A stretch of 55,489 nt of DNA, filler included, from Sphacelaria rigidula (taxonomy: Eukaryota), in NCBI GenBank assembly GCA_964200075.2. It is 5 parts of 5 records of this genome, joined end to end, with 100 filler letters (N's around TTAATTAATTAA, not from the genome) between each part and the next. Parts side by side here need not be neighbours in the genome. Positions count along the whole stretch, not along the records: positions 33,357 to 44,373 come from CAXNAA020005528.1; 4 more parts are not named here. One strand, 5' to 3'. The stretch's first letter is position 1, and each line of letters opens with the position of its first letter. A program made the position numbers and the translations under genes. Below are positions 11,020-52,600 of this stretch, in pieces. The notes beneath the pieces were generated by a model. It saw only the letters and a program-made list of their open reading frames with translations. It was not told where the DNA came from and searched no databases.

Positions 11020-11119
11020 NNNNNNNNNNNNNNNNNNNNNNNNNNNNNNNNNNNNNNNNNNNNTTAATTAATTAANNNNNNNNNNNNNNNNNNNNNNNNN
11101 NNNNNNNNNNNNNNNNNNN
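11020..11119. other. Artificial contig-join linker
   Basis: 44N-TTAATTAATTAA-44N, stop codons in all six frames. Confidence 0.97.
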
Positions 11120-22138: not shown

Positions 22139-22238
22139 NNNNNNNNNNNNNNNNNNNNNNNNNNNNNNNNNNNNNNNNNNNNTTAATTAATTAANNNNNN
22201 NNNNNNNNNNNNNNNNNNNNNNNNNNNNNNNNNNNNNN
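22139..22238. other. Artificial contig-join linker
   Basis: 44N-TTAATTAATTAA-44N. Confidence 0.97.
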
Positions 22239-22447
22239 CCCCCCCCCCCCGAGTGATGTGTGTGACAATTTCAGGGCGAAAACGGTCAAAATGTCGTATG
22301 TTGCTGTTTTCGCGTTACTGGCCATTTTTTGTGCCTTTCTTGGGAAAAAAACGGGAAGGTATACTTTTTCTAGGCCATTGCCCGATACATAATGTCAGAC
22401 TCTCTGCAGAGTTGTCCTCAATGTGCAGGTGCTGCGACAAATCCTAC

Positions 22448-25400: not shown

Positions 25401-28400
25401 ATGAATCAGCCGTCGGTCCATTCACCTGAGCTGCATAATAGAATGTAATACAGAGTGGACGCTCTGGCGGGGCTGCAGGGAGGCGGATAGGTGTGGGATA
25501 CTAGCGTTCAAAAGCGTATTGACTGCCATTACTGGTATCATGTGATGAGTGGTAAATAACGTCTGCTGTAAAATGGAGCGAAAACTGAGTACGATAAACA
25601 TCAACCAACGTTGAGACTAAGGAAAATGCCAAACATTGAGGCACCCTTGTCCTCTCGGCCCATATACATGTGTATTTCGACATGATCACGGGGTAACGCA
25701 TCATGAACAACAGTCCAATAGCCGAACAGAAAGGTACAATACTGCGCTTCACAATGTTTAGCGATCAGCACGTGGTGCTCACCGGAAATCCGCTTCACGT
25801 TGCTGCAACTCCTCCTCGGCCGACTTCGCCGTCGCCTCGGCTTTGTAAGTATTGCCAGTCTCTGTTTCTACCCGATGCTTTGACACCTGGCAGTATACAC
25901 GGATCGTTAAAAAGCAGGGTGAGTGCATTTTGCTCAAACTTGAGTCAAAGAGTCTCAGACCAGGATCTCTGGATCAAACAAAGGCCGATGAACACGCGAT
26001 TCTCCCGCGAATGGGGGTGCTATCGAACGTGGTGCCAAAGGGCTGATCACTGGCCAAACAAGGCGCATTGATGATGCTCTTGTAGCGATAACGGCAACAT
26101 CATCTTCTGCGGAAGGTGTTTCATTTCTATTCCTGCCCAGCGTAGATGACTCACCTGGTACTTCCGTCTGGCAGTGTCCAAGCTAACTCGCTTTTCTTCG
26201 ATTTGCGCGGTAAGGTTGGCGTTTTCAGCATGCTTGCGAGCCAACGCCCCCGCACCATTCCCAAGAGTATTTTTCACCACTTCGAGCACGTCTCGAAACT
26301 CCTCCAGTCGTGTCTGAGCTTCCTGGCTCTCCTGCCGCCGCCGCTGCACCGAGCGCTCGAGGTGCTCAATAGAAGTTTGTACCTGAGATTTGACCCAATG
26401 TTTACCTTGTTTGATCAGAACTTGCGGTGTTGATGCTGTCGCAAAGTTGGACGACCAGGATGTGGGCATGATGTAGGCTACGTAGACGTTTGCTCAAGGG
26501 CGGCATTTGCCAAGCATCATTATAGACCCTCTGTCATGTGGGTGAATTTTGAAACGCTGTTCCATTTTATCAGGTATTGGAAAATCATCGTTTGCTCCAT
26601 GTTTCCTTATATTTCCCCTTTCTCGAGTTTGTTTTTGACGGGTGTTCCCGTTTGTTTCCTCGGGTACATCTTGTCTCTTGTCTTGTCCCCGAGGCTGAAT
26701 CCCTAGGGGATCAATAAGTGTGTGACAATCAATTAATATCAACACTATAGAATGTAATATACACTGTGTATCGCCCATACCTGGCACGCCACCTGCCGGT
26801 GAGTAACACCGCCGAGTGACGACTTTTCAACCATTCCCGACACCATACAAAGTCCTACTGTGCTGAATCAGGGCTCGCAGTACACCTGCCCTCCTGGATA
26901 CCACCCCCAAGTGAGATTTGTTTTCGGGTCCCTCATTTATGAGGGGTTGCATACACCGTACCCTACGGTACTTCCTGCAAACAGCAATACGTGGCAGTAT
27001 ACACATGATAAACGACGCTGACAGCGGCACTTCGGGGGACTTGCCAAAAATCTCCATACTTCAATTGGATTGCTTCAACCGCTAGGTACGAGACGCAAGC
27101 ACTGAAACGACCAGTTTTTGTTCGGAAGCAATGCTTGTCAGTCATTTCGGTTACCGCCACTGATCACGGCGAATGATTGACCCCCCAAACAGGTTGGAAC
27201 AAAGAGATGTTAGTGCCCGAAAGACGATCCTACTCACTTGGTATACGTGGTCAACGTAAGAACTGTTGCTTTTTGGTCAGACGCTTCTTGTTCAAGTTTG
27301 TTTTAGTAACCATGGCTCATCACGACGGATGACTGATCTCGGGAATGGGGAATCGATAAATATCAGTACCCGACACATGAGGATTTTTTTTCCTAACAGC
27401 AGTCTTAAACTACTTCCGTGCTCATCGATCGTCGGGGGATCCAACGAATGCACAGTACCAGGTTGTGGTCCCGAAAGACTTCCGCTCGATCGAATCCTAA
27501 CCGTCCTGGTAAACAATCTCATGTTGCGACGCTCTCCTGTGTGTATGCTGTACCGGGTGTGTTACCACACTGCATGCAAAATCAAGCGTCGTCGATGCCG
27601 AATGGGAGCACATGCTCCCATGGAAGACTGGCCATCACAGGCACCATGTCGGTGCTCTAGTTGCAGGGTCTAGGTTCGGGGATGTAGTGTAGAACGCACC
27701 CAGGTAAATAGTCCTGGAGAGTGAAAGTGTTTCCCCGGGGACCAGACAGCTGGCAAGCTATTGTTCGTGAGACATGATCATCGTGCATGATCTCTAGGGG
27801 ATCGGAAGGAGTAAAGCCCCAGGCCCTTTAAGAATGTCACTCTGCACCCTCATGCTACAGCCGAGAAAACGTGCTTCACCGAATCAAAATTGGGCGCATT
27901 ACACCTCTCCCTACCCCATACGGATTCCCCCCCCCGCGGTACTGCCATGTCAACGCACAATTGGGAAATGCTGCTTTTGAACGGCCTGTTTCTCGTGCCA
28001 GAAACCGGCGGAAACTGTTGATCGAGTAAAAGAACAGTTCGAATGTTGGCTATTGTACTGTACACATTCAGTGAATTTGGCTCACCTCCTGGTTGTCGTT
28101 CTTTTGCATTTTGAGTCGAGCGGCGTTTTGCGCGAGGGTCTCCTCGCGTTGGACCCGGATTTGCCGCGTGGCGGCATACTTTTCGCCAACAGCGTTTATC
28201 TCGGAGTCGCGTCGGCGAATGCCGTCAACAGCATTTTGCCACTGGCGTATGAGGTCCTGCCGCTCAGCGTGTAACCGTCGAAATTCGTCCGCGGTATTGT
28301 CTAGTTCGACCTGTAATCCATACAAAGCATGCGCATGTCGCAATAGTGTTGCTTTTTGGAGTCGTCAGATCATATTCACATATACACAAACCCGATTGGT

Positions 28401-31196
28401 TCTCCGAGGGAAGGTAAACGGTGCTATGTGCATGACGTACGTGTAGCGAGGCGATTTCTGTTTCGTGAGACACGCTGCTGATGGGTGGTCTTATCGCAAC
28501 ATAACTAAAAGGCTACCGCCTCTGGGCGACTGTAGGGCAGTCTGCGCGCTCAAGGTCCCTGACTTCACACAGATCTACTTCGCGGTCTCTCAAATCAGTT
28601 TTTTTTTTTCACAAAATACAAAACATGCACGCGCTTCGGGTGTGGTCGCAAAACCCTTGCTTTGCCCTGTCATGCCACATAGTACTCAAAAGAACTACCT
28701 CCGGTGGCTGATGTCTTTTGAATCATTGTTCGGTCCGCAAAGAGTATATCAAGCAATTAGTGAAACTATTAGACGGGATGCAATGATACTCATAGATCAT
28801 CTTACAATGCTACACCATCTAGAAGCTCATTTGTAGGGCCATGCTGCCGTTTTACTTCGACACCGATACGTATACATATATATATACATACATATATGCA
28901 TTTTCCTTGCCTGTTTGGCGGAGGATTCCGCTTCGAGATTCTGAAGCTCTGCCCGTTTTGCTACCACAGACTTGGACAGCCGTTCCACCTGAAGACTGAC
29001 CGGGACAGGGCACGCATCGTTGAAGAAGGAGCGTGAGGTGCCACACATTACCCGAGGCATCTTTAATCAGCGACGGCGCCCAGAAAAATGTAGGAAAAAT
29101 CTTGTGTCGTTGTAGCATGCGATTGTGCGGCATGAGGTGGAAGACCTGATGGACAAGTTGCCGATCCCCAGGAGTGCTCCGTTTCAACCTGTTCCACCAT
29201 GGCACGTGCGGAGCTTAACATGCACAACAAAGCGCTGCAATTGTATGTTTCCTGGACAGCCTGTTCCTTGTATAGAAATGAGTAATTTGTGTGAAACACA
29301 GAAAAATGGTGAAAGAAGCACCTTCTATGATAACCATTTTACCTCAGGTCCTTGATCTTGACGTCATCAGCCCGGGCATACTTCTGAAGCGCCAGGTTGT
29401 CCTCCTCCTTCTGCTTCGCTGCCAAGGCCCACTGTTCCAATTCCTCTTGGTTCCAGTTCATCTGGAGTTTGAAACGATCCATGGCCTCGTTCCCGCTGAA
29501 AATGTTGTTCTGGACGATGTTGAGCTTGTCTTGGACCTCTTCGGCCTCTACCACAAACCTTCGGGCTTCGTTTGTATACCTGATGGGGTGAACCAAACCA
29601 CAATCGTTTCTAGTAGGTGCGGATGAGCTCGAAGAGACACCTTGCTCTTCGAGTCTCAGCACATGGGAACACTCTGTTTGTTCAGCCAACTCATTCTACC
29701 TTATTTCACCTGATGAACACGTTGAGCCTGATTGTGCACATAAAATGGCATACTATAGTAGCTAGACGCTCTGAAGTATGTACCTGCCAGCCTCTCTCGC
29801 CGCCAGGGCACACAGGTGCTCCTCGGTTGCGATCTCCTTCTTTTTCGCGTCCATTAAGGAATTGGTGTGCCCTACCTCTTGGCGAACATTCTTAAGGTGT
29901 TCTTCCATAATTTGGACGCGCTCCCGGTTGTCGGCCAGAGCTTTATCGGCCCCCACTACCATTTTTTCCCGCCTCTGGGTACATGCAGTAATACGCAAGT
30001 TAATCAATCACGCGGCGATGTGAGGAGCGCCTTGCATACCTCATTCAGCTTGGTTGCCATCAGGGGGGAGAGCTGAAAGGGTCCCCTTTGCTTATGTAGT
30101 GTACTTGCATAAAAACTAGTGATGATTTGGGACTTGCCGGTTTCTACAAAATTGAAGCCTGTTCGAAAGCTGTTCGTAGGTGTCTTGTGGTCAATATCAT
30201 GAAAATGTGAATAAATGCATATCGCAAATGCGAACTCCTCGACGACTTCGCGCTAACACAACCCAAGCGAATGAGTAAGCATAGAGGTAAACTCACGACG
30301 ATTCTAATCTCTGAGTGGTTAGCGTTTGTTGGTAAATTGTTCTTGCTATTGGTGTGCTTATGCCACTGCGTAACCCGCCGACGTACGCCGCAAGGCGAAC
30401 GCTGACTCCTAGAGGGTGGAACCGGACGACAAGTAACTCGACGACCGATTCCGCTGTCACAGCGCTATTGACAACGTTTTCGTGAGATTGAAAGTAGAGG
30501 ATAGAATTGGGAGTGAGAAGCGGTCAACTGTTTCATGAAGAGTTTAAGTTCCGAAATTCCCCTCTACGAGACCAGGTACGCTTTCTGTAGTAGAGCGCCA
30601 CTGAAGCCCTTGATATCCCCAAGTAGGATATCGACGTGTAGCTGTAAGCACACGTCAGTGTTACAGGCAAAGACAAGCACCCACAAAAAGTGAAATTGGT
30701 CACGTTAACGCGAATGTTAAAACCCACTCTCAATCAACGCTCCACTCTCAATCTCACACAAACACTGTTGGTTGTTGAAGACGCCTTCTCGATACGATAC
30801 TGTATGCGCTCGCTTGTACAAGTTCAGCACACGGTACGTGCTCGCTAGTCGTGCTCGCTAGTCGTAGCTTAGGACGAGGGTATGAAGTGATATTCTGATA
30901 GCCTGCGCGTAGCAATCGTACTTTCTGGCATCTCGTTAGTACAGTAGGAAGTAGGTCCCTATCCTCCTATCCTGTCTCGTCCCTCGAATCACCTTTACTT
31001 CGTCGTTGAGCGCTTTACTCTGCTCATTAGCGAAGATCGGCAAATCATCCACGCCCGGAATGACATCAGCACCTTCCCTGGCGTCCACGATTTGACCTTC
31101 GTCCTGCCGTTCTTCTACCCTTGATCCGTCGAACATCCTCTGATCCTGCCGTCCCAGACGGCCGTCTGCACCCCTCTCTATACCAAACTCCATCAT
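22448..31196 (-). CDS. CCDC39: Coiled-coil domain-containing protein 39 (FAP59, axonemal 96-nm ruler); 13 exons, 3' end missing at contig edge
   Basis: Exons 31196-30993, 29974-29784, 29579-29343, 28995-28911, 28310-28086, 26382-26155, 25886-25783, 25229-25115, 24865-24683, 24315-24137, 23872-23704, 23277-22997, 22739-22448 join in frame (831 codons). Diagnostic family motifs: LPIFANEQSKAL, MEEHLKNVRQE, FKLQMNWNQEELEQW..KEEDNLALQKY, QQELIYSAEFQIQKMERKVAR, SQAYFIIAAAQKREELQREGDELD..EIRALESTL. Confidence 0.95.
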
Positions 31197-32635
31197 CCGT
31201 TCTGCATTATTGTTTTCAAGATGCCGTCAAGGAAGAGCGTAAAGTGGTGCGCAGCTTTCTGGTTGGCCAAAAACCAAGCATAAAATCTGGTTGGCCGTTA
31301 TTCCTTGCCCTTTTCCGTCAACAGTGCAAGTATCACGGTAGATATTCTGGTTAATTTTCGCCGCCAGAATTCATCCTCCACTATTCTCCCTGTTGTTACC
31401 CGCCGGCATATTTGAAAGGTACACAAAATATACAAAATACCATCTTGCTACGCTCTGAGATTACAGAGGAAACGGGAATTGGGAGGCAACCTGCAAGTGT
31501 TGTACACTCGCTTCAAAGAGAACATGACTCACCTGGTGTACAGCACAACAGCGGCCAACTATTACGAGACTGCTTGGGGCTCAGGTCCTAACCGTAGTCA
31601 TAGCCTCACTCGAAATGTGAATGTCGTACTCTGATACATTATCGTATGAATTGGTACAGGACCAACAACAGTTGAGTCTCATGCCTGAGGCTGCATTTTC
31701 ACTTGACTCGAAAGGTTCCAAGGCTCTTCGCGTGCAAGGCAAGCTCTCGCATGGCCATCCTTGAACCGACAACAACGGTGATGACCTCATGTGGCCATCT
31801 CTAAACCGGGCACAAGGCCCACTGACCATCTTTGCATCGGACGAGAAAGCGAAAATCTCACATGACTATCTCGGGAACAAAACCGAATCAGGTCACGTGC
31901 GATAAGTACCGATTACTAGGTGAAAACTTGTGCACAAGGAAATTCGTGTTCGCCGTGTTCGTTGTTTGCGTACTATAGTTTCATACACTATATGCCTTCG
32001 AACTGTTGAAGATTTACGTCCAGTAGTCCTACTACCTGGTTTTCTCCGATGAGTGTGTTCAATTACAGGTACATAAAGAAGTTGTCACCTACCAGCAAAT
32101 CGCACACTCACCCTAGTGTGGCCTCGGAAAGGCCAAGAAAAACACCGCTTGAGTTTCCTACAGCATATTTTCAAAAACGCAACGCTACAAATTGAAAAAG
32201 AAAAACCCTAGGTTGTCCGTATTTCTTGCGGTGGCACAAACAGGCATTCTTCCAAAACCACCATCATTTTGGCTCGAGAATGCTCGTCGCAAACACTATG
32301 TATGTGTAGTTGTGGCTCGAGGGAATGCTTCGAGAATGGATACAACGCCGATGTTTCGATATTTGAAAAATTGGAAAAATGGTCGATCCGATCGTTACGG
32401 AAATACTCATGATCACACAAAGTACACATGGTGGACTGTGTCACAAATAATTAATCCCATGTGCGCCCATCTTCTGAACCGTGCGCAAGTTTCACATTAC
32501 AGTAGTACGAATCTCTGTGAACTGTGCGGCAAAAAAGTAAAAGTCTCAGATGACCGTCTTCGAGCCGGGCACAAGTCTCACGCATGACCATCTCTGTGAA
32601 CCGGAAGGTTAAAATGTTGAAAATCCCACGGTTGT

Positions 32636-33175
32636 GTTCTGTAAGGTACGGGTACGTTCTGTAGGGTATGAGATTCCTTGCAGAACTTACAGAACTGTCG
32701 GGTACAAAGGGTATCGGTATGAACCTCTTATAGAGCTCACAGAACTGTCGGGTACCGGTATGAAAGTCTTACAGCATTTACAGAACTTGTCGGGTACGGT
32801 ATGGGAGGCTTACAGAAAAACGGTACCGGCGATCGGGTAACTATTTTTGGGCATACCCGCCCCTCGGGTTAGGGTAAAGGTTTTGTGCAGAACTCACAGA
32901 ACTGTCGGGTAAGGGTATGGTAGGCTTACAGAACTCACAGAAACTGTCGGGTAGGGTGAGGACGTTGCACAGAAAACCGTACCCGCAATCAGGTATCTTA
33001 TCAAGAGCGTACCCGTGCCCCCCGGTAGCGGTACGGGAGTCTTACAGAACTCACAGAACTCTCGGATATAGGGGTATGAAAGTCTTAGAGAGATTACAGA
33101 ACTGTCGGGTACCGGCATAGAAATATTACAGAGTTTACAGAACTGTCGGGTACGGTAAATACCCGGCAAAATACC
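32636..33175. repeat. Minisatellite-like repeat (ACAGAACTCACAGAACTGTCGGGTA units)
   Basis: About 8 diverged copies of CAGAACT(C/T)ACAGAACTGTCGGGTA...GGTATG, with a short inverted copy (TTCTGTAAGGTACGGGTACGTTCTGTA) at the left end. Confidence 0.9.
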
Positions 33176-33256
33176 CCAAGTATATACGAGCTGGGCCAGC
33201 CTAGAGGCTGCATGAACGTTTGCAGGCGGATGCGCCGGCCAATATTTGGAGTTAGA

Positions 33257-33356
33257 NNNNNNNNNNNNNNNNNNNNNNNNNNNNNNNNNNNNNNNNNNNN
33301 TTAATTAATTAANNNNNNNNNNNNNNNNNNNNNNNNNNNNNNNNNNNNNNNNNNNN
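33257..33356. other. Artificial contig-join linker
   Basis: 44N-TTAATTAATTAA-44N. Confidence 0.97.
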
Positions 33357-33590
33357 GGGGGCGTACTCATTTGTTGCTCGCCTTAGTCATTTGACCATTG
33401 ACCACGCATCCCTTTCGAGACGGAGCACCGTCAGCTGGGGGAGGGGGGGGGGGGTGGCTGTCTCGATTGTAAGGGGTTGTACTGATGGCCTGTGTCACTC
33501 TATGGATGCACCGTCTGCGTTATCTTGTGTTTTGTTCCCGCACGAGCAAACACGATTTATAACAGGTTTTAGGTATTCCAAGGAATCAGT

Positions 33591-33852
33591 TGTAATGCGT
33601 GAGAGGACCGCGTGCTTAGAGAACCGCGCCGTAGTCCAAAACACCTCAGGATCGACGTTTTTCAAAACGAATCGGGCCAGTCCCTTCAGGTGCCATGCTC
33701 CTGACTAAATACCTAACACTAATCCTGACCCCAACCCTAACCATAAGGATGTTCAAATCCCGATGCGGTCCTCTAAGCACGCGGTCCTCTGTGTGACTTG
33801 TCAGTAGTCTGGTTGGTTGTCTCTTAAACCGTCACACCTCTCACGCATTACA
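33591..33852. mobile_element. Small nested inverted-repeat element with internal CCCTAA-like tract
   Basis: AGAGGACCGCGTGCTTAGAGAACCGC (33602) / GCGGTCCTCTAAGCACGCGGTCCTCT (-33790). Outer IR TGTAATGCGTGAGAGG (33591) / CCTCTCACGCATTACA (-33852). Internal CCTAACACTAATCCTGACCCCAACCCTAACC. Confidence 0.65.
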
Positions 33853-34196: not shown

Positions 34197-37100
34197 GATA
34201 ACGACGCTACTGATGAATCCTCCCGCTGGTCGTGCAAGCCCGACCTGAGCGCAAGCTTGGTATGCTCGATCACTTACACCTTCGAGGATTCGCTCACCCT
34301 GGTCGGGCTCGCCGTCGGTGAGTCGTCCCTTGTTTTATCCAGCACTCTTAATATTTTGGCTGTGACGGGGTGATTTGTTCGACCCGCACGTCGCTCGGAG
34401 TGATGCTCCGGAGCAATAGGTTTCCAAGACATTATTAAAAGTATGGCTGTGGCTTGTGTATAATACACAATGTTCGACTGTCAACTTGACAGGAACAAGC
34501 GGTTCACCACGTGAACCCAGCTCTGACAAGTGAGCTCGCAGAGGCTGCACAGTGTTGTTGGACACTTGCTTGTGCAAGTAAAGAAGAGAAGATGTTTGAC
34601 AGTTGGCGCTTCACTCGGACGATTAAACACAACGAAACGCTGGGTTCCTTATTGACGCGGAAACCAATGACAAGCTGACAGTTGGCTTGATTGAGTGGAG
34701 AAATAACAGAGAGTGACCACGAGTTGGTATCTCGGAAAACTGGCCTATCTCAACAAAACCGTTCGTACTATGAACTATACGACTTGAAATATATGGCCAT
34801 AAACTCTACATCCACAAAGTCTTGATGCTATGGACGCTGCGAGTCAAGCTCTTCACTATTCTGACATTAACAGTTCGGCCTATCCGTTCATCAATCCTAC
34901 GTAGCTCTACGGTCAAAACCCGTTCGTACTGTCTGCTCTACTTTCTACTGATGTTGCTGTTCAAAACCGTAACTTAGTCTGCCGCTAACGTTGTGTACAG
35001 ATGTGAAATTGATTTCTTTCCGACGGACATGACGCGTGAAGCGATTGAGGATTAGAATAGTGAACTTGAGCGTGGTCGAAATGTAGTTCTCAGGCCTGAG
35101 AGCATACAACGGACAATTCTATAAAATGAGGCTGTACACTAAATGAGGTTCAACCCCAATACAGTGTTTTTTCCAAACTTTCAGCGATGGTGTCCGATGA
35201 TGTTGTTGTCGGTCTGATGTCCCTCGATAGCGTAGATACTTTTCAGCGTATTTTACCGACTCTGTGAGCTTACAGCGCTTGCCGAACCTGTCATTTTCCT
35301 TCGTATCATCCCCCCAAAACATACAAATCAGGGAAAACGACGGTTTGGGTCAGCGCTGTAAGCTCACAGAGTCGATAAAATGCGCTGAAAAAGTATCTAC
35401 GCGATTGAGGGGCATCAGACCGACCAAAACGTAATTGAGCACCATCGCTGAAAGTGTAAAAAACACGGTTTTGGGCTTGAACATCATTCTAATGTACAAC
35501 ATCATTTTTTAGAACTGTCCGTCATACCTGGTAGATTTTTTGGTACTGCCACCGCCAATTGTGGAGGTCACTCGGAGCAATGCTCCGGAGGAAGAGGTGT
35601 CCAAGACAAAACGCGTGAAGCGACCTAGGATGAGAAGAGTGAACTCGAGCGGGGTCGAAATGTAGTCATCAGGCCTGAGAGCATACCTGGTGGGTTTTGT
35701 GGTACTTCATGGTCAAGTAGTTATCTGTCCCTTTCGACCGCGCAGCAACGCGTTACGAACTTGCTCGGGTTGAACACGGTCGTAATTCCCCCTCTTTACC
35801 CTCGTCGATCCTGATGACCACCAGCGCTGTTCAGAGGAGACGAAACGGTGAGGACCATGGAGATATACCTCGACGACGAATTGATCACTACTTGGTCGAG
35901 TTCGGGCACTACGACGGATTTGGAAGGCATAGATTTCGATGCTGTGGGGGAAACCGTGGAATTGCGCGGTGTCCTCGCCGACTCGGAGTGGCTTAGCATA
36001 CTGGAGGTAGGCACTAACATAAATAGCCGGCACCCGATAGCGACCGGCTACGCACGCACGATTTGATTCGCTCGCTCGGATTGAGAATATGTCTAAATAG
36101 TACCCGACCAACAGTACCGCCTTGTATCGTCTTTCTCCAAGCTCCTAACGTACACCCTTCGCCCACATCTGGCGTACACCCGTGGTAGAACATGCCTTCA
36201 CGCTGAGCTGTGTCTTTGCCTACTCGATGATGATTCTGAAAGAAGATGGCGCGCTGGAGGTTGTTTTATTTCCTCAACAGAGTTGCGAGTTCCCGTCGAG
36301 TTCCCGTCGAGTTTCCGTGCTTTTCATTGCACGGTATCACACACATCGCGTGCCCAGGACAGTACGAAGACAAGTGGCTGAGATGTGACCCGGAGTCAAC
36401 CAGCTCGAGCTTGCGTTGAGCACCAGGATTTCCATCCTTGCATCCGGTTGGAGCTTGGTTGCCCATGTGGCGTCGTGCCTTGTCGAAACCAATCGACCGT
36501 ATTCCGTCAAACTTTCTCCGGACCTTGGTTCGTCGACGCCAGTCAAGTGTTTTCATGACCCAAGCCAGTCCAGTGGTATCCTTTCCCACAAGGTGCTGGA
36601 GCCGTTCGCTGCATTCAATTTTGCTGTATTCAGGTGTTTTTTCGCCGACAGTTGGTGCTCCTTGTTCGCCGTTCACTCTGATGGTGTAAAAAAAAACACA
36701 TAGGTGGAGATCTTTGTCGTGACGGCCGATGACGGTAGCACCCCATCGCCCGTCTCGCCATCGACGCCCGCCCCGAGCCTCACCCCTACGCCCACCAACA
36801 TCGACGCCCCCCCCGAAGGCGAGCTACAGCCAGTGGGTCTAATTCCGCTGGCCTATGGGGACGGTACGGTGTTGGAGGCCTTTTATGCTAAGGTGCGTAG
36901 AGGTGTCGTTGTGCCGAAGAAACCATGTCCTACACCAGTCGGTCGACGTCTGTTGAGAAGCATACAGCAATTGCGTGTGGAGGTATGGTCGGTGTTATGC
37001 GTTCATAGTGGCAAGTGCGTGGCCTCCTGCTTGTGCGTGTGTGACGTGCTGTTGTCTGCGTGTGCTCAGTGTATTTTCAGTGCCGGCTCCCTCACTGCAA

Positions 37101-40100
37101 CCTCCGTTTCCAGCTGTTTGTGGTGGGATGATACCGTAGTAGGTGGTAAAACGAGGTGATTTGGTGCTGACGGATGTTGGACGTTTCATTACTAGATTTG
37201 CACAATGCATCGACGGAGAACTACGAGACCGGTTCTGTTGGCGTGTCTTTCCTTCTGCGAAAGCTTGATTCGGTTCTTGTCTCGTTGTCAAAGGGATGGT
37301 GCTGCTCTGAGAGCACCTTGCGCAGAAAGAAGCCCAAAACATGATCCTGTGTCCCCCGGCCGAGGATAGCCTCGGCGTAGAAACGAGTCGTTCTCAGCAC
37401 CCTTCCGTTTCCACGCATTCGGGGCTCAGAGGTAGCCTTTGAAGCAAATAGCTCGCGCAAAGCTATGCCTCCATTATCCCGGTGAACGCACGTCTGCCGT
37501 ACTATGTTTCGATATTTTGATATTGTATCTTGACCTCAAGGACGGAGACTTTTCAACGGAGTGGACGTGCACTGGGGACTCCACATCCGGGTGCGGCCTC
37601 AGCTTCCGGTTGGATTACTACCGACACATCAAGCAGATCAATATCGGTATGTGCTGCCCGGTGCATGCTTTTGTTTTTGGTGCTACGCACCACAGTGGCG
37701 TGCCACGCGTGGAGTACTCCGTGTGTGTACAAAGGTTGTCTTGCGCCCTTCTCATGTGAGGTCTACGGCTGTGTACCTCCCTCCTGAGACAGCTGCTCTA
37801 GCGCAAGGTGGATCCGCCTCTCTCGTATCCAAATCTATCTCTTTTCTACTGCATAAGTTCGCATGAGCTTCAACGTGACGGATAGCACACCGTAAAAGAA
37901 GTGACATTTGACCTTACAAGGGTTGTGCGTGATACTTCCTCCCGTGTGATGTTGCTTCCGCGGGCACAGATTTTGGGGTCACCACGTAGGACGGGAGTGA
38001 ATACGGAGCATTGCCCAAGCTTTGACACCCTGTCGCTTTTCTTCTTTCCGTGTCTGCTCTTGCGTCGTTGCCCATCAGCTGCATCCGACGGTGATGATGG
38101 TGCGGTGGACATCATGATCACAGGAAGGAATCCAAACTTTGACGCCGGTGAAAACGTGAGTGGATTCTCGTGATGCCGCATGTTTGTGACGTTCGCTTTT
38201 GAGTTGAAGCATGTTTTGTTTTGGAATAATTTAATTTTCGCCATACCCTCTCCCTCCCCTCCCTCCCCTGCCGTCCTCAATGAAAACCCGCTGCGGCAAG
38301 GGAGCAACTTATCTCTCACCCTGTACACGTCTGGCACCTTCGTTTCGTGAGCTAGATCAAAACTCTCCGTGACCGTCGACGTTCGTCAAAGTTTCTTCGT
38401 TAGCCACGCCATCCTGTTTTCAACAACGGGAAATCCGTTACTCCTCGGAAGAAAAGCCGTAAACACATCGGGTCTACCAGGCATCGAATCCCCTACTCCG
38501 CGCCAACTGCTTTGAACACGAACCAGTTAAAGCATCGGGCCGTGGCGGCTCTTGATCGCACAATACTGCGTTATGCGTCCTGCTCCAAGCCTTATCCGTG
38601 CTTCCCTAAAGTTTTCCTTTTAACATATGTTTTCACCAAAACAGCACTTGGTGTACAGTATGCGTTGATCTTTTCGCTTGCTTCCGCCGCCGGTCGCTCG
38701 GGGCCGTCTCTCCTAGGTTATAGGCGCTCTAGGTGACCTTTTCCGACGAGGCAAAGCGATGACTAGCACTCACATACGAATATACCAAAGCTATTTATTC
38801 CATGAACTCGGATGGCTGAAGGATGGTCTTTTGCATGTTGTGGGCATTCTATTCTCAATCAAGGAAGTACACCGCATGAAATGGGAGCATACGCTGTAGT
38901 CTCCTCGCTCGGGTAGCCGGTCTGGTCCTCCTTCGTTCCACGCGCTACACTGTTAGTACCATCTAGTTCTGGGGTACAGCTATCAATGTAGATGGCACGT
39001 GGACGTGTTACATCGGCATTCCAACAATTCAGCAACTCTGCACGTGTCACCTGTCCGTTCCCTATCTTCCGTTGCTTTCACCCTCCGTCCCCGTTGATGT
39101 TTCCCTTGGCGGGGGGATCGTGGTTCGTCGACGCAACGGAACAGTTTGAGGTGACGGTATCCAGCTCCGGATCCACCGACGGCTTCGAGACCTTCGACTT
39201 TGACTTCTTGACTACGACTATCGAGATCGACTCGCTTTTCACCAGCACGGGACAGACGCTCACCATCTCCGAGGTTCGTCAGCATGACACACCACCAACA
39301 ACTTAGTCGCCTGTCAGTATAGAGTAAGTCGCATGGTACTCGCATGCGCAGGTACAGTATCTGTCACATAGCGTTGTCGACCGGGATCTGCGGATATTGA
39401 TTACACGGTCGGGCATTGTCACGAGCACCCATTCCGTCAAACACTGACTGACCAACACAACAATGTGCTGATAGTGTTGCGAAATGTTGAGCGCAACACA
39501 GCGCAAAGTGTAGATTTCTTCAGTCGAAGTTGTTCGTTCCGATGGGGATGGTAGGCACGGCAATTGTCATTCGGCTGTCATAGTTGTGTCGCCCGCGTTT
39601 TGGCTCCATACTGTTTCCAAGGGTACACGTAACATTCGGTTCGTTCGAAGTTAAAGCTTCCCGTGGGTTCATGGGTTCGTCCATTTTCCGTTGTTTTCCG
39701 CGTGTATTCTTGTCGAATTTCGGTTTTCTCTTCATATGATTTAGCTATTACTCTATTCGTGTCTTCTCTCATGACGATTTATTCGCGATTTCGCCCGTGT
39801 TATCCACGCTGCGATAGTCGCTATGTGTAGATTCTACGTTTCCCAGCTGTTTTGTGTTTGTGGGCTCTTCGATTGTCTTCTCTTTACTTGTATTCGTTTT
39901 AATTTTTGTCCGGATTTGTCGTCCCTTCGCTCCTTCGTCCATTTCGCTCTCGCATTACAAGATCGAATTCGTGGAAGAGGTGCAAGAGGGCTTTGTTCCT
40001 GTCACCTCCTTCAGCCCGCCAGACGTAGACCAGGTATGCTTTGCAGTTTGTGCTCAAAATCGCTCGTACATATGTTATTTTCTGTTCTTACAAAAGTAAC

Positions 40101-43100
40101 GTTTCGTCAGATGAGTCATATACACTTGTTTGCTTCTTGTTTCGGGGATCCAAGTTCCCGGTGGGAGAGAATGCGTTGCTATGATATTGTTTTTGCTTCC
40201 GCCAACGCCATTTGTTCTGTTGACGAAAGCCCCATCTCACCCTTGTGGCTGAAACGGCTGCTAGCCTCTTCCGTGCACGTGGACAGTGACACCACACGGA
40301 CGTCCCGTACCACGGTCATCGTTCGTCAATGGGCATTTCGTGCAACAAGTGAATACCTTTGAGTACACATGATGACTGTTCCGAGCATTATTGCGATGAT
40401 CCCCTCCCTACAACGCATAGATACTGGACAAGGATCCATTGCATAGGAGTGACAAACGTGAGCTAAACGTAAGCGTGTTCAAAAGGTTTATTGTCTTGGT
40501 GTCTATGATGAGTGAGAAACGACCCCTCGCCTCTCTAGAAGGTCATCCTCCTGGCGTTCAATAAGCGATCCCGCGGTAGATGGGTCGAGAATTCGTCCAA
40601 AGTGGGTGTGATACAGCCTCTAAACATCCGCGTGGACACCACAGTGCGGATAAAGAGTCCAGCATAGTGTCCGTAGTGACTCTCTCTCGGTAGCGTCTGC
40701 TAATAGTACTGAATATACTGCGCGCGCTGCCGTCCGTCCGTCCGTCCATATCGAGCACCATCTCGAGGCATACCATTACACCCATTGCGTGATCCAAACC
40801 CATCGAACGAAAGCACGCCACTCTGAACCCATATTGATAAAGTAATGTCTCTCTCGTGTGTTCGGCTTCTGATGATCCGTTGTTCTATCTGTTCTTTCGT
40901 CTTTTTGTGCTGGGGGCGGGCGGGCGGCGATGTGTCGTGCATGCCGCACAATCCATCACGTGTACATACACTCATCCAGTTGCCAGTAACAGGAGGCTTT
41001 GCGTTCATGTCGGAATCTGCGGATACCCTTGGTGAGGATATCTTCTTCTCCTTCGCATTTTTCGCGGAGATAACGGCGGTAGAGCTCCAGTTCCCGGTGG
41101 GTGACACGTACATGTTCGATGTACAGCTGGTCATCGAAGGGGAGGACGCAACTGTGGAGATTTCGGTGAGATCACGCCGCCGTCGGGATTCCGCGATATC
41201 CGTGCGCGCGTGGATGATTTCATGGGCAGGGGGGGAAAACAAAATCACATATAGATACGGGTTTGCCGCAAAGGTAGACGTTTCAGTAGCTGAATCAGTT
41301 CACCAAACTGGAATGGAATAATACACAGTGCGTACGTCCGGGGGGTAGTTCGGCTGGTCCCAGGGCGTGTTTGTGTGTGTCGCTCCTTCCTGTTGTTCTA
41401 TTTCTGGGCGCCGGTTTGCGCTTGTCGTCCGCCCCCATCTCGGTTGCGCTTGGTGGATGGGCAAGCGTTGGTGACCTTAGCGCCAGAATTCTGCAATAAC
41501 GGTGAGCAAGTATGCGACGAGATGGTGACATATGGCTGGAGGGAGAACTGTGATGCACTACTCCGCGGGGGCAGCTACACTTGACTTACATTGGGGCTGC
41601 CATACGGCTAGAGCTGCTGTCAGGGGATGTCTGATTGCACGTGCGGTCTCTGGCTCGAACCTTGGCTTTGCGGGGAACAAAAAATAAAGCAGCCCCTACA
41701 ATTGTACTCTCCCAGATCACTGAATCCGCGAAATGCGCACAGAAAAAATGATGACGTTGTGCAGAAAAACAAGCTAATCTCCAGGCGTGCATGACCCGGA
41801 CCGGCCCCATTATTGTGCATTCCGGGACAATGGTAGAATTCCATGCACCACGAGCAAGAGCAGCAACAGTCGGCAAACAGTACAGTGCGTCGCTGAAGTC
41901 GCCCGGTCTCTGTTTTTCCTCGACAGGGCTTCGAAAGCGCAGACGTCACAGGATGGCAGAACTTCGATGTGAGCCAGTCCCGCAGCACCGGCCAGATCGT
42001 GACGGACGTCCGCATCGTTATGCAGGGGACTGGTTCGGGTGCTACGGGGTTCTCACTGCTCGACGCTCGATTCGCGGGTGAACTCGTGGCTAACCCCACC
42101 GACGTTATCACCGTGAGTTTTAGTGTGCTGTTCTTAGTTGATGTTGAAAAGAAGCCTCCAGTATTTTAGTTGCAGCCGATGATTAGGATGAGGTGGTAGA
42201 CTGAACGCGACGTTAGATCCTATGGTTTAGGCAAAGAGCGATTCATACGCTCACGTTGTTACGCTCTGCTGCGCCGTTGATAGTGTGTAAATACGTTAGG
42301 GTATTCAGCACGCAAATTGTCCTTTTCCCTTGCCGAATTTCACGGTTTCATCCCATTCTTTTTTGGCGCGACATACATACCTAGGTCGGCAGCGTACGCA
42401 TAGAGAGGTGGACCGGCGGCAGATACCCCGATTATGTGGGGTCAGGCACCAGCGACCAGCAGGTCATCCAGGCTGCGATCTGCGGGGTGAAGAAGGCTTC
42501 TTTTGACGGTGTTGACTGTGTAGGAGAGGATCCCGACGCTACCGGCACGGTAAGATTTGGATTTAACCCCGCCACTGCGGTAATGTTTCTGTCGAAAACT
42601 GTTATACGGGGGAAGTGGTGTTCTTCAATCAACTAGATGGATCTCATCCTGGATGACGACCGAGTGAATCGTACCGTGTGGATGAAAATGAACCTTCAAG
42701 CTCGTTAGAAAACTGTCGTGTCACGAAGCAGTACATGAAGCTGCGGTTGATGTGCCGGGTTTATTTTTGCGCCGAGGGTCACTCGTAAACTCGTAGCCCA
42801 CCCATGCCGTCGTTCAGCAGCCGGTGTCCGCACACGTTTTCTGTACCCCAGTCAAGCTGTTTCCTGATAGGGAACCGGCGAAAGAGATTCAGCCAAACAT
42901 ACTTTGCGAGATCGTTTGGTAAAACTGCTCGCTTTTTATTTTCTTTGCTGCTACCCTCGAGTTAAACAAGCTCGAACATGGATGTTCCCGAGTTAGCGCA
43001 CAGCAAGTTGGTGCGCTCACGAACAGAAGGGTAGAAATGACGCCTTTTCGATCGGGAAGGTTTTACGCGGGTGGCTTTTGGTGGATGTCAATGCATTAAA

Positions 43101-43364
43101 CTATAACTCGACTGGTTGTATAGTGCGGATGTTCCCAGAGTAAAGGTGGATGCCTGTCGAGGTCAAGGATATTCCTCGAAGGTCGACATGCCACCAACTA
43201 CGTGTCGAATGGCTACGCTACGTCTGTTCTTCTGTGTACGTGACGCGGTACTCAAACGTTTTGACTGTCGTCGTTTTTCGTGCGTATTAGGTGGAGCTAT
43301 CCATGGGGAGCTACTACATTGACGGCAACATTTTCCTCAAGTCTGGTGTCCACCTCAAGGGCCA
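34197..43364 (+). CDS. Partial multi-domain extracellular-type protein: 3 tandem F5/8-type-C/discoidin-like domains, PTS linker and start of a right-handed beta-helix (pectin-lyase-like) domain
   Basis: Exons 34197-34317, 35825-36006, 36704-36892, 37541-37646, 38079-38155, 39145-39273, 39962-40033, 40980-41165, 41927-42112, 42385-42549, 43291-43364 have AG/GT borders and compatible phases (495 codons, no stop). Motifs: D....SRWSC...CSITYTF...ALFRGDETVRTMEI...SSGTT...WLSILEVEI; DGDFSTEWTC...LTISEIEF; DYVGSGTSDQQVIQAAI...GTVELSMGSYYIDGNIFLKSGVHLKG. Both ends are incomplete. Confidence 0.85.
35109..35522. mobile_element. 414-bp fold-back MITE in an intron
   Basis: ACGGACAATTCTA...ACTTTCAGCGATGGTG...GTAGATACTTTTCAGCG...GACTCTGTGAGCTTACAGCGCT mirrored over ~190 bp, ending TAGAACTGTCCGT. 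Flanked by CATAC(A)/CATAC(C). Confidence 0.85.
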
Positions 43365-44373
43365 GTAAGAACATCTATTCCACCCTGTGCTTCGACTACC
43401 ATGTAACGCATTCATCGTGTTGCTATCCACTCCTAATCACGGAACCGGATACATGCGTTGACGTCAAAATTCATGTCGCAACCATATGTGGGACGAGTTC
43501 TGGGCATAAGTCCCGCTTGGCGCCTGTAGGCGCCTCGGCCGTTATGCATCTCGTCTGTTCACCTCGCAGAGGAAATGTCCACACTGGAGATATATATGCA
43601 GGAAGTTGTGCAAAATATAGGCCCATCTCCACTGCGGATTATTCCACTCCTTTACGGTAATTTGAATACTGAAAGCGACCTCTGCTTCTGTGCAGCAGTG
43701 TAGTCCAATGTTTCCCGGGTGGAGAGGGGAAACGTTCCTCCTCATGTGTGCCAGCTTCCGCGGGGTTCATTTCCTGTGAGTACGGATAGGCTACACAGTA
43801 GGTGCGTATTTTCGGTAGATTGAGGCAGACAGCGAGACAAGAGAGCACATCTGAACTGCAGGACTCGCAAGTGATTTCAACATCTGAAATGGCTTACACC
43901 ACAGCATATCTTGTTGGCGCGTCGTGTACTCTTGACTATGCATGCGGTTGGAAAAGAAAGGTGATAGCCTCCCGCCTCCGCGGAATCATAGGGATGCGAG
44001 GACCCCCCATGCATTGCAGACGCGCAACGTCAATTGCAGCAGACTGATGGCATTTGTTGTCACGACTAAATTTACCCCTTCCCCCCCCCCTCCTTAGCCT
44101 GGTCCGGCGAGAATCCAGCGTGCTCTGTCCCGGCTTTGTAGGGGCGAACCCCCGATATGGCTGGCGTCGGTTGGCGATAACGCTATAAAACACGCCACTC
44201 ACTACGGAAGCTAGGGAACTAGGTTACCGCTTTTTTTTTGCGCACTTGCGTTTTTTTGCGGTAGCCATGATGGTAGTCGAGCTAGATCATGTGGTGCGGC
44301 GTGGGAGAACCTCAACTCCGCACAAGGGGAATGATCGTTCCACGTAGTGTTTACATGGTGAGGTACCCATGAG

Positions 44374-44473
44374 NNNNNNNNNNNNNNNNNNNNNNNNNNN
44401 NNNNNNNNNNNNNNNNNTTAATTAATTAANNNNNNNNNNNNNNNNNNNNNNNNNNNNNNNNNNNNNNNNNNNN
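44374..44473. other. Artificial contig-join linker
   Basis: 44N-TTAATTAATTAA-44N. Confidence 0.97.
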
Positions 44474-49678: not shown

Positions 49679-52600
49679 AGGGTTTATTCCAGCCCGAGTC
49701 GAACTGAAGCGGCGATTGAGCTGGTGATCGATGCAACTAATAAAAGAAAGGTGATACAATTATGATGACGAGGGCGAACAATTAACCACCCACGTGCTCC
49801 TCGCTTACGCGTCCTCTCATTTATCTATTCCCGATGTTTTTTCGATAAAATGTTGAGCTCTTTTGAGCCATTTCCATGAAGTGGATGATGTGTGAAATTC
49901 GTTGCCCAAAACAAGGGGGTTCATCGGTTGCGATGTACACCGAAACATAAGGCTGCTTGACGTGCATTCTCGCTGACTACCGATATCAACATCGGTCGAA
50001 GTACCTACTCTCTATAGTACATATGTATAGATAGATCGACAGATGGGTACCTCTGCCTCGAGCAACGTCTCACCGTGGACTGCTTTTGGCAGCCATTGGG
50101 TTGAAATCCCCTTCCATGGGATGACTATTTTTCTTGCTTTTCTTGGTCATTGTCCGTGCCCGCATGCCTCTTGACAAACAGGCATCGCCGAGGTCGGGGA
50201 TAAACACGCCGCCGTGAGAGACCTTCACCAAGAAAACAAGGTAAGAAGACTATGGATGCCAAGAGTTTGCGCCGATAGCCGAAACTACAGGGGTCATTTT
50301 TTTCTTTTTTCACCCCCCGCCCCTGATATTTTGTCCATTTATTCCGTGATCTACGAACAAGAATATCTTGGGTTTTTTTCGTGTGTCTACATGCACGGAT
50401 TTTTTTCTTCAATTGGTATTTTGTTGGGCCCTCGGCAAGCTATTATAGATACAATAAACAAAAAGGGAATGCTAAACGTTTTGTGCACGTGGGTGTGTAC
50501 TGTGTGTGTTACGTTCTGTTCGAGTGTTCTTCTATGATCGTTTAGACACACGGCAGACACTGTGATTATGTCTCGTAACTTGTGTCTCATGCTGCTTTTC
50601 GTTTTGATAAGCGAACGACGGCCGATTCAGTTACTTCTGTGTGCGTATATATTCATCCACACTCTGGCCCTCCGTTCAGTAAGATGGCAGCGGTTGCTGT
50701 CGATAGCTGTGGATGGAAGATGACCGTAGAACAAACGTTTTGAGTCAATCACAGCACACTTTAGTTCGGGCGAAAGCAGCCAGAAAGCCAGCCTGTGGCC
50801 ATCGTTGTACGTCGTGGCCATCGTGATACATTCCTCTCGGAGCGGGCCTTCACGGTCGAAGAAGGCCTACCTACCACATGGCGAAGGTGTACAAAAGACG
50901 TGAGCAGTCAGGCTCATCTTCTGAGTAGTGAGCAGTAGTACATTTGATGCTGTTTCTGTCAAACTACCCGGAAAATCCGAGATTCGTTTGACGGCTGACT
51001 GAACACGCCGCAAACCGACGAAACGAAACTTGTTTCTCGAGATTCCCATACTTTTGCGGTCCTTGTCTTGCTTTTTTTTATATTATACGTAATGTCCCAT
51101 GAAGATATTGAAAAGTGTACTTTTTACCACGTGTCCGTGCTGAGGGTTCCGGATTCATGAGGTGCACCGTGGCGGTGCTTTGCGAGTAGAGGGATTGCTC
51201 GTCAGGAATGTTCACTGACAGGACGGCTGCCTTTTTTCCCATTCCTTCTTTCTTTTTCTTTTTTTCCCCTTTTTTTCCTCTTCATTATTTTGTTTTCAAT
51301 TCCCTTCTTTTTTTTCATTTCTTTTTTCCCTTTCCCTCCCTCCCTTGTGTATCCTTCTTTATTTTCCTCTTTTCCTCTGTTGTGTTCGTTTTCGATATTT
51401 TTGTTTTCATTCATACGGTGGCAATTCGTTGCTGTCGTATTTTACAACGTACGTCCTTTTTATTTGTTCCAGGATTTGGATACCGAGTTCGATCACACCC
51501 TCCGGCGGTACATCATGGGCGTCAACGACTACATGGAACACCACCGCGAGCTGGACAACCATGGAAAACAATTCCACAGCATCAATCATCGTAGCCCCAA
51601 TAACTCCCCCCCGCCACAGGGGGTAGTTGGAGATATGGACTTGGCAAACAGGCGAAGGACCATGAACCAGGTGCATTGCTGCATATCTCCGTCAGGATCT
51701 CAAGTCGGACGTTTGTTATCGGCACCTCTACACTTTCTCTACAGTGCGCACAACTCACTAGTTTGGTTTTTGCGCAATACTGTACTGTACTGTACGACAC
51801 GTCGAGTGTAGGTATTATCGTGTTATGCTTTAAACATGATACATGACCTATGTTATAATTTGAATTTCGGTAGAAGAGCTTGATTGGTCCGAGGAACATT
51901 GATATTTTAAATGCATTGGAACAAGCGCGCGTCGCGTCAGTCATGCTTTTCCTCGTATGGTTGTGTTCCTTATCTAGTATAATTCGTGTGCTTTCCCGGC
52001 AGGTCGAACGCAGTAGCGATGCTGCAGTAGTGATCGATCTGGCAGGCGACAATAACGACGACAACAACAACAACAATAGCAACAACTACAACAACTACAA
52101 CTACAGCAACTACAACAACAGCTACTACCACAACAACATAAACAACCATAACAGTCACAGCAGAGACAGCGGGATTCAAGACGCCACGGGGACCCAGCAG
52201 CGATTTTCCTCGGCTCATCAACGCCAACAACACCACCATCATCACCATCACCCGCAGCCACGCGGGGAAGGGAGGGGAAGCAAAATCTCCTCCCGTTGGA
52301 TGGAGGGGTATGGTGCCATGTCTTCAGGCGGAGACATGGCGACCGCAGGGGCGGGCATGATCCCGGGGGGCGCGGGAATGCAGCACATGCCACACCATGG
52401 GAGACACCACGACATGGGAAATCATCATGGTCGACAGCTGGAGTCTTTAGACACCATGAGTAATTCATCCGGCGGTGGAGGTGGAGGTGGAGGTGGAGTG
52501 CGGATATATGGAATGGCGCCATCGTCTCACCCTCCCGGCTCTGCTGCGGCAATGGGTATTGGTGGTGGGCAGGGCGCATTGGGGGTACTCGGCGCACGCG

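What the first reader, a model, noticed from the sequence alone, without database searches (positions are those of the whole stretch)
34197..43364. Hidden 11-exon gene: tandem discoidin/CBM32-like domains fused to a prokaryote-style beta-helix enzyme cap
Seen: eleven short exons, invisible as a unit in the ORF track, splice in frame into an acidic, beta-rich 495-aa fragment with three repeated ~120-130-aa modules and a Pro/Thr/Ser linker. It ends in DYVGSGTSDQQVIQAAI...GTVELSMGSYYIDGNIFLKSGVHLKG. Established: D..aIQ.AI...G.V.l..G.Y.i...i.lkS.v.l.G is the N-terminal cap of right-handed parallel beta-helix polysaccharide enzymes (Pectate_lyase_3-like superfamily, including phage tailspikes). D..SRWS...i.f...R...l.I.EveI is the F5/8-type-C/CBM32 pattern. 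Inference: a modular cell-wall polysaccharide enzyme (alginate or fucan lyase, hydrolase or epimerase) that does not look like a typical mannuronan C5-epimerase start. The DY..xGT.DQ..IQ.AI variant resembles bacterial, archaeal and phage beta-helix proteins, so the catalytic domain may be horizontally acquired and later intronised. The catalytic core is off the contig, so activity is unknown.
Basis: partly seen in the sequence, partly recalled or inferred. Interest (0 to 1): 0.72.

Follow-up and report, generated by a model that had tools for sequence, protein, structure and literature searches.

The report
Uncharacterised brown-algal alginate-binding wall protein
This is a real, spliced brown-seaweed gene from a widespread but undescribed family of secreted proteins that join bacterial-style alginate-binding modules to a beta-helix shaped like alginate epimerases but lacking their catalytic motif, so it may be an overlooked cell-wall remodelling or binding protein.

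Summary
The 11 exons are real. They splice in frame to 495 aa, and all 10 introns are joined in 3 of 3 RNA-like runs and absent from the DNA run. The fragment is the middle of a gene from a brown-algal multigene family (at least 8 copies in this genome; Discosporangiales to Fucales). Full-length relatives carry a signal peptide, 1-3 CBM32 modules most like the alginate-end-binding CBM32 of AlyQ, two degenerate sandwiches and a ~330-aa right-handed beta-helix. The helix's best structural matches are AlgE alginate epimerase modules (Z 27-28, tied with a phage protein), but the YG(F/I)DPH motif is absent. A different conserved groove set (D573, D629, R634, D666, E725) sits there, and the divergent subfamily lacks most of it. 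No prokaryotic or viral sequence homologue was found, so transfer is untested. Probable Ectocarpus orthologues are 19-88-fold higher in upright than basal filaments (raw counts), and their orthogroup is absent from three kelps. This copy has one CBM32 fewer than its sister gene and lacks the key arginine. Best reading: a secreted alginate-directed wall protein, possibly a new chain-cutting enzyme; non-catalytic binding is nearly as likely.

The parts
34197..34317 (+). Exon 1 of the fragment (aa 1-40): inner part of the canonical CBM32 (D..SRWSC, Ca-site-equivalent Asp/Ser). Signal peptide and first ~40 aa of the module lie upstream, off this contig.
35825..36006 (+). Exon 2 (aa 41-101): rest of the CBM32. 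Trp equivalent to AlyQ W303 kept; Arg equivalent to AlyQ R248 replaced by Thr in this copy.
36232..36368 (+). Point in intron 2 where about 1.8 kb of the sister paralogue (L038), holding a whole second CBM32 repeat, has no counterpart.
   Evidence: mRNA joint 36006 to 36704
36704..36892 (+). Exon 3 (aa 102-164): end of CBM32, Pro/Thr/Ser linker, start of module 2.
37541..37646 (+). Exon 4: module 2 (degenerate CBM32-like sandwich).
38079..38155 (+). Exon 5: module 2.
39145..39273 (+). Exon 6: module 2; Ser/Thr at the W303-equivalent position in 40 of 41 family members matched.
39962..40033 (+). Exon 7: junction of modules 2 and 3.
40980..41165 (+). Exon 8: module 3 (divergent all-beta domain).
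41927..42112 (+). Exon 9: module 3.
42385..42549 (+). Exon 10 (aa 417-471): N-terminal cap helix of the beta-helix with an invariant Cys pair.
43291..43364 (+). Exon 11 (aa 472-495): first beta-helix strands; ends in a phase-2 GTAAGA donor shared with the sister paralogue.
43365..44373 (+). Intron 11 up to the contig end; 75% identical to the sister's intron over 708 nt. The sister's next exon lies about 1.15 kb after the donor, which is just beyond this contig.

Best explanation
The gene encodes a secreted, acidic, modular wall protein of a brown-algal family, directed at alginate. Shown: exon structure, splicing, family membership, signal peptides and folds of homologues. Inferred: the N-terminal CBM32 module(s) dock on unsaturated uronate chain ends such as PL41 lyases leave. 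The beta-helix groove then binds the chain through a conserved carboxylate ladder (D573, D629, D666, E721/E725, P0001 numbering), probably bridged by Ca2+, with R634 and H687 beside it. It cuts the chain by lyase- or hydrolase-type chemistry unlike the Tyr/His epimerase centre, loosening the wall of growing upright filaments. This copy is a derived paralogue with one CBM32 and no carboxylate-binding Arg, so end-docking is probably weakened.
For: Family profile hits AlyQ CBM32 at E 6.6e-12; the next PDB hit is at 0.024. AlyQ CBM32 binds cleaved, not intact, alginate; W303 and R248 are implicated (PMC5651945 passages). R248-equivalent is Arg in 73 of 74 family modules matched, W303-equivalent Trp in 72 of 75. 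AF2 model of P0001 has pLDDT 85; top matches are AlgE-type alginate epimerase/lyase modules, Z 28.0, 27.1, 27.0. In the main subfamily (47 sequences), 5 of 20 groove-face positions hold a charged residue conserved at 85% or more, against 0 of 22 on the other two faces (faces assigned by hand). Hydrophobic N-termini in 14 of 16 long homologues inspected and no strong internal TM segment. Probable Ectocarpus orthologues are 19-88-fold higher in upright than basal filaments, neighbours 1.3-1.5-fold (raw counts). dN/dS against the sister gene is 0.32.
Against: No known catalytic motif (0 of 234 stored proteins carry YG[FI]DPH). D629 and D666 are replaced in the divergent subfamily (5 sequences) and in the Choristocarpus member, and R634 in the divergent subfamily. 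Residues shared by all three groups are mostly cap or structural. The AlgE lead is slim: a phage protein ties at Z 27.0 and the non-alginate proteins PfbA, phi29 gp12 and RbmB score 25-26. An AlgE-like profile scores the family at most 22.5 bits, no better than generic PF13229 (22-33 bits). Very high read counts also fit a structural protein. The helix body of this copy was not found.
Confidence: 0.38

Rival explanations
1. Non-catalytic alginate-binding or cross-linking wall protein: a pseudo-enzyme beta-helix that lost the Tyr/His dyad and binds uronan chains through Ca2+, with CBM32s tethering chain ends (works like the adhesin PfbA).
For: In the 1:1 coil register the AlgE Tyr149, Asp152 and His154 positions hold Asp, Val and Arg. 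No groove residue is invariant across the whole family. PfbA matches at Z 25.5-25.7. Counts reach 1e4-1e5 reads per library for the probable Ectocarpus orthologues. CBM repeat number varies from 1 to 3.
Against: Conserved charged residues cluster on one face in the main subfamily, which suits an active site as well as a binding site. CBM plus linker plus beta-helix is the usual enzyme layout (general knowledge).
Confidence: 0.32
2. It binds or cuts a different wall glycan (fucan, beta-glucan or another uronan); the alginate link is coincidental.
For: Beta-helix matches to GH28, GH87, GH91, GH110, PL31 and tailspikes lie within 1-5 Z of the top. CBM32 specificity varies (PMC5651945 passages). 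The orthogroup is absent from alginate-rich kelps. This copy lacks the R248-equivalent.
Against: Both independent halves point to alginate proteins as nearest solved relatives, and the uronate-binding Arg/Trp pair is kept family-wide.
Confidence: 0.18
3. This particular copy is truncated: its mRNA reads into intron 11, stops at TAA 43366-43368 and lacks the helix body.
For: No second copy of the sister's downstream 1.7 kb or of its exon 12 at the expected ~80% identity was found in G000. The RNA contigs shown end within exon 11. It already differs from its sister by a lost repeat and a lost Arg.
Against: G000 holds only contigs of about 5.45 kb or more, and a later helix exon was found for only 4 of 8 family genes. 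The donor and intron are shared with the intact sister. Exons 10-11 have pN 0.06 and 0.02 against pS 0.18 and 0.12.
Confidence: 0.08
4. It is a true mannuronan C5-epimerase of AlgE type.
For: AlgE A-modules rank first structurally. The Choristocarpus member's third coil resembles the AlgE motif coil and keeps the Asp152-equivalent.
Against: The YG(F/I)DPH(D/E) motif, and the Tyr and His whose substitution leaves about 0.5% activity or less in AlgE7 (PMC8824271 passages), are absent in either alignment register.
Confidence: 0.04

Closest known systems
AlyQ CBM32 (Persicobacter PL7 alginate lyase; PDB 7D29, 5XNR)
   Same: N-terminal modules align at E 6.6e-12 with the Ca-site Asp, W303 and (family-wide) R248 positions kept.
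   Different: Extra Cys pairs; 1-3 tandem copies plus two degenerate sandwiches; fused to a beta-helix, not PL7. The window copy has Thr for R248.
Azotobacter AlgE mannuronan C5-epimerase/lyase A-modules (8JA4, 2PYH, 5LW3)
   Same: Best structural matches, Z 27-28, rmsd 2.2-2.4 A over about 265 residues, same cap type, similarly acidic.
   Different: 17-20% identity; no YGFDPHE motif; Tyr, Asp and His positions hold Asp, Val and Arg; CBM32s at the N-terminus rather than R-modules.
Brown-algal ManC5-E (AlgG-related) and PL41 alginate lyases
   Same: Multigene families acting on alginate, with bacterial origins proposed (PMC11468063 and PMC4444821 passages).
   Different: No DPH motif in the helix. 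[quoted passage not shown] No direct sequence comparison with either was run.
Ectocarpus Ec-21_001320/001340/001350/001360, orthogroup OG0000085
   Same: Four tandem secreted 'galactose-binding domain-like / pectin lyase fold' genes. Three listed lengths (1155, 1050, 1150) fit family proteins of 1154, 1049 and 1149 aa in the tandem cluster CBJ48546-49.
   Different: Automatic labels only. The identifier match is my inference from order, length and domains, not a sequence comparison.
EsV-1-164 (Ectocarpus siliculosus virus 1)
   Same: An Ectocarpus gene annotated EsV-1-164 has signal peptide, F5/8 type C and pectin-lyase fold; the viral protein is a Foldseek hit at E 1.7e-9.
   Different: 16% identity, TM-score 0.17, rank 16 among generic hits. 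No sequence was obtained, so shared ancestry is untested.

Membership tests
CBM32 / F5/8 type C | Profile match to PF00754 or PF22633 above cut-off | tested here: met
   Homologues P0006, P0007 and P0010 pass. Window module 1 scores 125 bits on the family profile. Single window exons gave 0 Pfam hits in 11 of 11.
Uronate-binding CBM32 (AlyQ type) | Trp equivalent to W303 | tested here: met
   Present in window exon 2 and in 72 of 75 family modules; absent from module 2.
Uronate-binding CBM32 (AlyQ type) | Arg equivalent to R248 | tested here: not met
   Thr (ACG) in the window copy; Arg in 73 of 74 family modules matched and in both modules of the sister gene.
Uronate-binding CBM32 (AlyQ type) | Binding to cleaved alginate | not testable with these tools
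   Needs a binding assay.
Right-handed parallel beta-helix (PF13229) | Coiled parallel beta-helix with N-terminal cap | tested here: met
   PF13229 above cut-off in P0001, P0003, P0004, P0006 and P0080; model pLDDT 85 and Z up to 28. Shown on a homologue; the window holds only the cap.
Pectate-lyase-3-like cap (PF12708) | Score above the 27-bit cut-off | tested here: inconclusive
   14.6-16.7 bits for P0004 and P0001; 25.9 bits (E 1e-5) for P0080.
Mannuronan C5-epimerase (AlgE or AlgG type) | YG(F/I)DPH(D/E) motif with catalytic Tyr and His | tested here: not met
   0 of 234 stored proteins and 0 of 53 helix parts; register comparison; motif from PMC8824271 passages.
Mannuronan C5-epimerase (AlgE type) | Acidic residue equivalent to D178 | tested here: inconclusive
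   D666 is Asp or Glu in 44 of 44 main-subfamily sequences under a hand-set 1:1 coil register; hhalign preferred a shifted register.
PL41 brown-algal alginate lyase | Sequence similarity to PL41 | not tested
   No PL41 sequence was in hand.
Horizontally acquired gene | Nesting inside a prokaryotic or viral clade | tested here: inconclusive
   No alignable prokaryotic or viral helix homologue, so no tree with donors could be built. Language-model neighbours are bacterial or phage but generic.

The most novel reading that the evidence does not exclude
Brown algae carry a third, unrecognised class of endogenous alginate-modifying protein besides ManC5-E and PL41. It descends from an AlgE-type bacterial A-module fused to AlyQ-type CBM32s before the brown-algal radiation. 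The Tyr/His epimerase centre was rebuilt into an Asp/Arg/Asp chain-cutting site that works from lyase-made chain ends in erect filaments, and kelps lost this subfamily.
Probability: 0.22. Interest if true: 0.82.

Novelty: new variant of a known kind. Interest (0 to 1): 0.5.

Why it matters
How brown algae loosen and pattern their alginate wall during growth is poorly understood, and a 2024 survey lists PL41 as their only polysaccharide lyase family (PMC11468063, passages). A highly expressed, developmentally regulated, multicopy secreted family with alginate-type binding modules and an epimerase-shaped helix is a directly testable candidate, by recombinant assay and Ectocarpus knock-out. It could also give a new alginate-tailoring tool. 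If it proves non-catalytic it would still be a major undescribed structural wall protein. The locus itself is an ordinary intron-rich paralogue; the interest lies in the family.

Tried and rejected
Pfam on single exons: 0 of 11 hit. Single-sequence AF2 of P0001 was poor (pLDDT 42) and was not used. Foldseek on the whole four-domain model gave only generic sandwich and helix hits; modules 2 and 3 were not folded and searched alone, so their family is open. No prokaryotic or viral relative: phage tblastn of exon 10; pattern scans of genome, viral and metagenome contigs, 108, 101, 256 and 2 candidate stretches, none confirmed; word-seeded searches scoring 7,999 candidates each. The HMMER library search gave 294 hits of which 150 were listed, mostly unnamed exon-sized pieces; 144 were not seen. 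Sequence search of PDB found no beta-helix at E up to 1 or 10. NCBIfam gave generic beta-helix models for the family (16 and 7 of 50 members), plus response-regulator models on one fused gene model; 25 of 64 families were shown. Profile-profile comparison with AlgE-like modules (7 of 80 fetched loci passed my filter) gave 93-97% probability but slipped coils, so it does not fix the register. Acidity as an argument against alginate action was rejected: AlgE-like modules are as acidic. P0176 as independent support was rejected: it is a public partial model on a contig of this same length. No listed run is on record as RNA. RNA cover after exon 11 could not be resolved because 25 joints and 172 loose ends were not shown. 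The 3' half was not found in G000, nor a divergent-subfamily member; both are weak because short contigs are not held. The tree is the quick version. Ten literature searches found no paper describing the family; subscription journals are not covered. Earlier scan findings: none.
Full report
Context. The window is five contigs joined by N-linkers. The finding lies on the contig at 33357-44373, which is G000:C5528. The organism is a brown alga: a public partial protein model identical to aa 302-391 of the fragment is labelled Sphacelaria rigidula.

Observation. The eleven exons splice through AG/GT sites into 495 aa without a stop; exon GC3 is 0.71 and intron GC 0.50. None of 20,000 random block sets was open. 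All ten introns are joined in contigs of runs X1, X2 and X3 (one study, RNA status guessed by the tool) and in none of DNA run X5. The three modules are unequal: 125, 38 and 0.8 bits on a family CBM32 profile, and no BLASTP self-repeat.

Family. Exon 10 found full-length homologues in Ascophyllum, Sphacelaria, Scytosiphon and Ectocarpus. Wider searches gave 33 and 52 proteins. Every one whose source names an organism is brown algal, including Pylaiella, Hapterophycus, Nemacystus, Laminaria and Undaria; one search adds Cladosiphon and Choristocarpus. Several Logan and ENA entries are unnamed. The fragment aligns end to end at 47-53% identity with its 15 best matches and groups with P0010 inside the main subfamily (SH-aLRT 97, quick tree). 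A divergent subfamily at 27-32% identity holds the Laminaria and Undaria sequences. G000 has at least eight family genes. Full-length members have a hydrophobic N-terminus (14 of 16 inspected), no strong internal membrane segment, one to three CBM32 modules, two further sandwiches and about 330 aa of beta-helix.

Sister gene. L038 plus L028 appear to form a sister paralogue, 70-82% identical in DNA across introns. Its exon differences match the 'other letters' seen in run X2, so it is transcribed too. dN/dS between the two is 0.32 over ten exons; exon 8 was left out because it is not on either sister contig. The sister has a second CBM32 repeat in about 1.8 kb that the window lacks between 36232 and 36368. 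The window's mRNA joins exon 2 directly to exon 3 in phase 0. The sister shares the exon-11 donor and continues about 1.15 kb later into the helix, a position just past the end of the window's contig. The window's own 3' half was not found. G000 holds only contigs of about 5.45 kb or more and a later helix exon was found for only four of eight genes, so this is weak evidence; truncation is not excluded.

Binding modules. The family profile's only strong PDB sequence hit is the CBM32 of alginate lyase AlyQ (E 6.6e-12). By the passages read of PMC5651945, that module binds cleaved but not intact alginate, has a Ca site at D209/T214, and uses W303 and probably R248. Counting along the alignment, R248 falls on the Arg of the family's G..R.T motif and W303 on the Trp of EWLSI. 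These are kept in 73 of 74 and 72 of 75 modules matched. The window copy keeps the Trp but has Thr for the Arg. Module 2 has Ser or Thr for the Trp.

Beta-helix. AF2 with 50 sequences modelled P0001 at pLDDT 85 with three all-beta domains and a capped right-handed helix. Structural search ranks the alginate epimerase/lyase 8JA4 (Z 28.0, rmsd 2.3, 265 aligned, 20%) and AlgE4 and AlgE6 A-modules (Z 27) first. A Geobacillus phage protein ties at 27.0, and phi29 gp12, PfbA, a Paenibacillus alginate lyase and RbmB follow at 25-26. The fold is therefore secure and the AlgE preference slight. The epimerase motif YG(F/I)DPH(D/E) and catalytic Y149, D152, H154 and D178 (PMC8824271 passages) were tested. 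No stored protein has the motif. Counting coils from the cap against AlgE-like modules fetched places Asp629, Val632, Arg634 and Asp666 at those four positions (register set by hand, while hhalign slipped coils). The Choristocarpus member is intermediate in that coil and keeps the Asp152-equivalent. In the main subfamily the groove face carries D573 (47 of 47), D629 (45 of 46), R634 (41 of 46), D666 (42 Asp and 2 Glu of 44) and E725 (42 of 44). The other two faces have no conserved charged residue. The divergent subfamily keeps only D573 of these and has its own set, so no catalytic residue is family-wide.

Expression and distribution. Four tandem Ectocarpus genes, Ec-21_001320/40/50/60, are annotated as secreted galactose-binding-like and pectin-lyase-fold proteins (PMC6368402 supplement rows). 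I match them to the family's tandem cluster CBJ48546-49 by order, domains and three lengths; this is an inference. Three are in the gametophyte-upregulated list. In PMC12629598 supplement rows their raw counts are 19-88-fold higher in upright than basal sporophyte filaments, against 1.3-1.5 for two neighbouring genes. Counts are unnormalised and vary widely between sporophyte samples. Their orthogroup OG0000085 has 8 or more models in seven species and none in Macrocystis pyrifera, Saccharina japonica or S. latissima. This agrees with my finding only the divergent subfamily among named kelp proteins.

Origin. No prokaryotic or viral sequence homologue of the helix was found. Language-model neighbours are generic bacterial and phage helices. 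The CBM32 is clearly bacterial-like. An ancient transfer is plausible, as proposed for ManC5-E, PL41 and GH88 (PMC11468063 passages), but cannot be tested without alignable donors. The family has been inherited within brown algae since at least the Choristocarpus split.

Mechanism. Best reading (0.38): a secreted alginate-directed protein that docks at unsaturated chain ends and cuts chains at a Ca2+-bridged Asp/Arg/Asp groove. The Ca2+ and Arg-as-base roles are by analogy with PL1 lyases, recalled rather than tested. Rivals: non-catalytic binder or cross-linker (0.32), another glycan (0.18), truncated copy (0.08), true epimerase (0.04). It works like a CBM32-beta-helix polyuronate protein; it is not a member of the C5-epimerases.

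Literature seen. Passages only: PMC5651945, PMC4444821, PMC8824271, PMC11468063 and bioRxiv 10.1101/2024.02.19.579948 (no mention of pectin, galactose-binding, beta-helix or discoidin). Passages and supplement rows: PMC6368402, PMC12629598. Supplement rows only: PMC3879662 (Esi0025_0100 and Esi0270_0027 listed among gamete-expressed genes); PMC10112911 (no hit). Ten searches found no description of the family. Brown-algal wall proteomics in subscription journals and bioRxiv supplements could not be seen and may list it.

Verdict. Real gene, ordinary as a locus. It belongs to an apparently undescribed brown-algal family that is a good candidate for wall remodelling. New variant of a known kind; interest 0.5.

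Noticed in passing
window 22239-33256, minus strand (e.g. 29342-29695, 26050-26493, 22975-23280): Exons of a CCDC39 (flagellar coiled-coil) gene on an unrelated contig; PF24161 at E 4.5e-23, 3.9e-7 and 3.8e-16.
   Followed up: partly
window 11020-11119, 22139-22238, 33257-33356, 44374-44473: N-runs with a TTAATTAATTAA core join five separate contigs, so neighbouring contigs are not genomic neighbours.
   Followed up: yes
window 33357-33790, 35230-35560 and 44014-44373: High-copy repeats with very high depth in both DNA and RNA-like runs; they flank the gene and probably broke the contig.
   Followed up: partly
window 34390-34431/35567-35608 and 35026-35107/35605-35686: Short direct repeats (86-87% identity) flanking the repeat element inside intron 1.
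   Followed up: no
window 51874-53754, plus strand: 627-aa low-complexity Q/H/G-rich open frame with no Pfam hit.
   Followed up: partly
P0031 (Nemacystus model g11873): A family member with an N-terminal response-regulator receiver domain; probably a fused gene model.
   Followed up: no
L032 and L033 (G000:C7789, C18394): Two paralogues have an extra intron inside the exon-10 region and lack the intron between exons 10 and 11, showing intron gain or loss within the family.
   Followed up: no
L044-L123: The AlgE-type YGFDPHE motif occurs in many non-Azotobacter genomes (Bradyrhizobium, other Alphaproteobacteria, cyanobacteria, Bacteroidota); only 7 of 80 passed my filter for a full capped A-module.
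   Followed up: partly
P0081, P0122, P0226, P0227, P0228: A divergent second subfamily with the same architecture but a different groove (Asp/Glu609, Arg611, Glu664, Asp689); the only form among named kelp proteins.
   Followed up: partly
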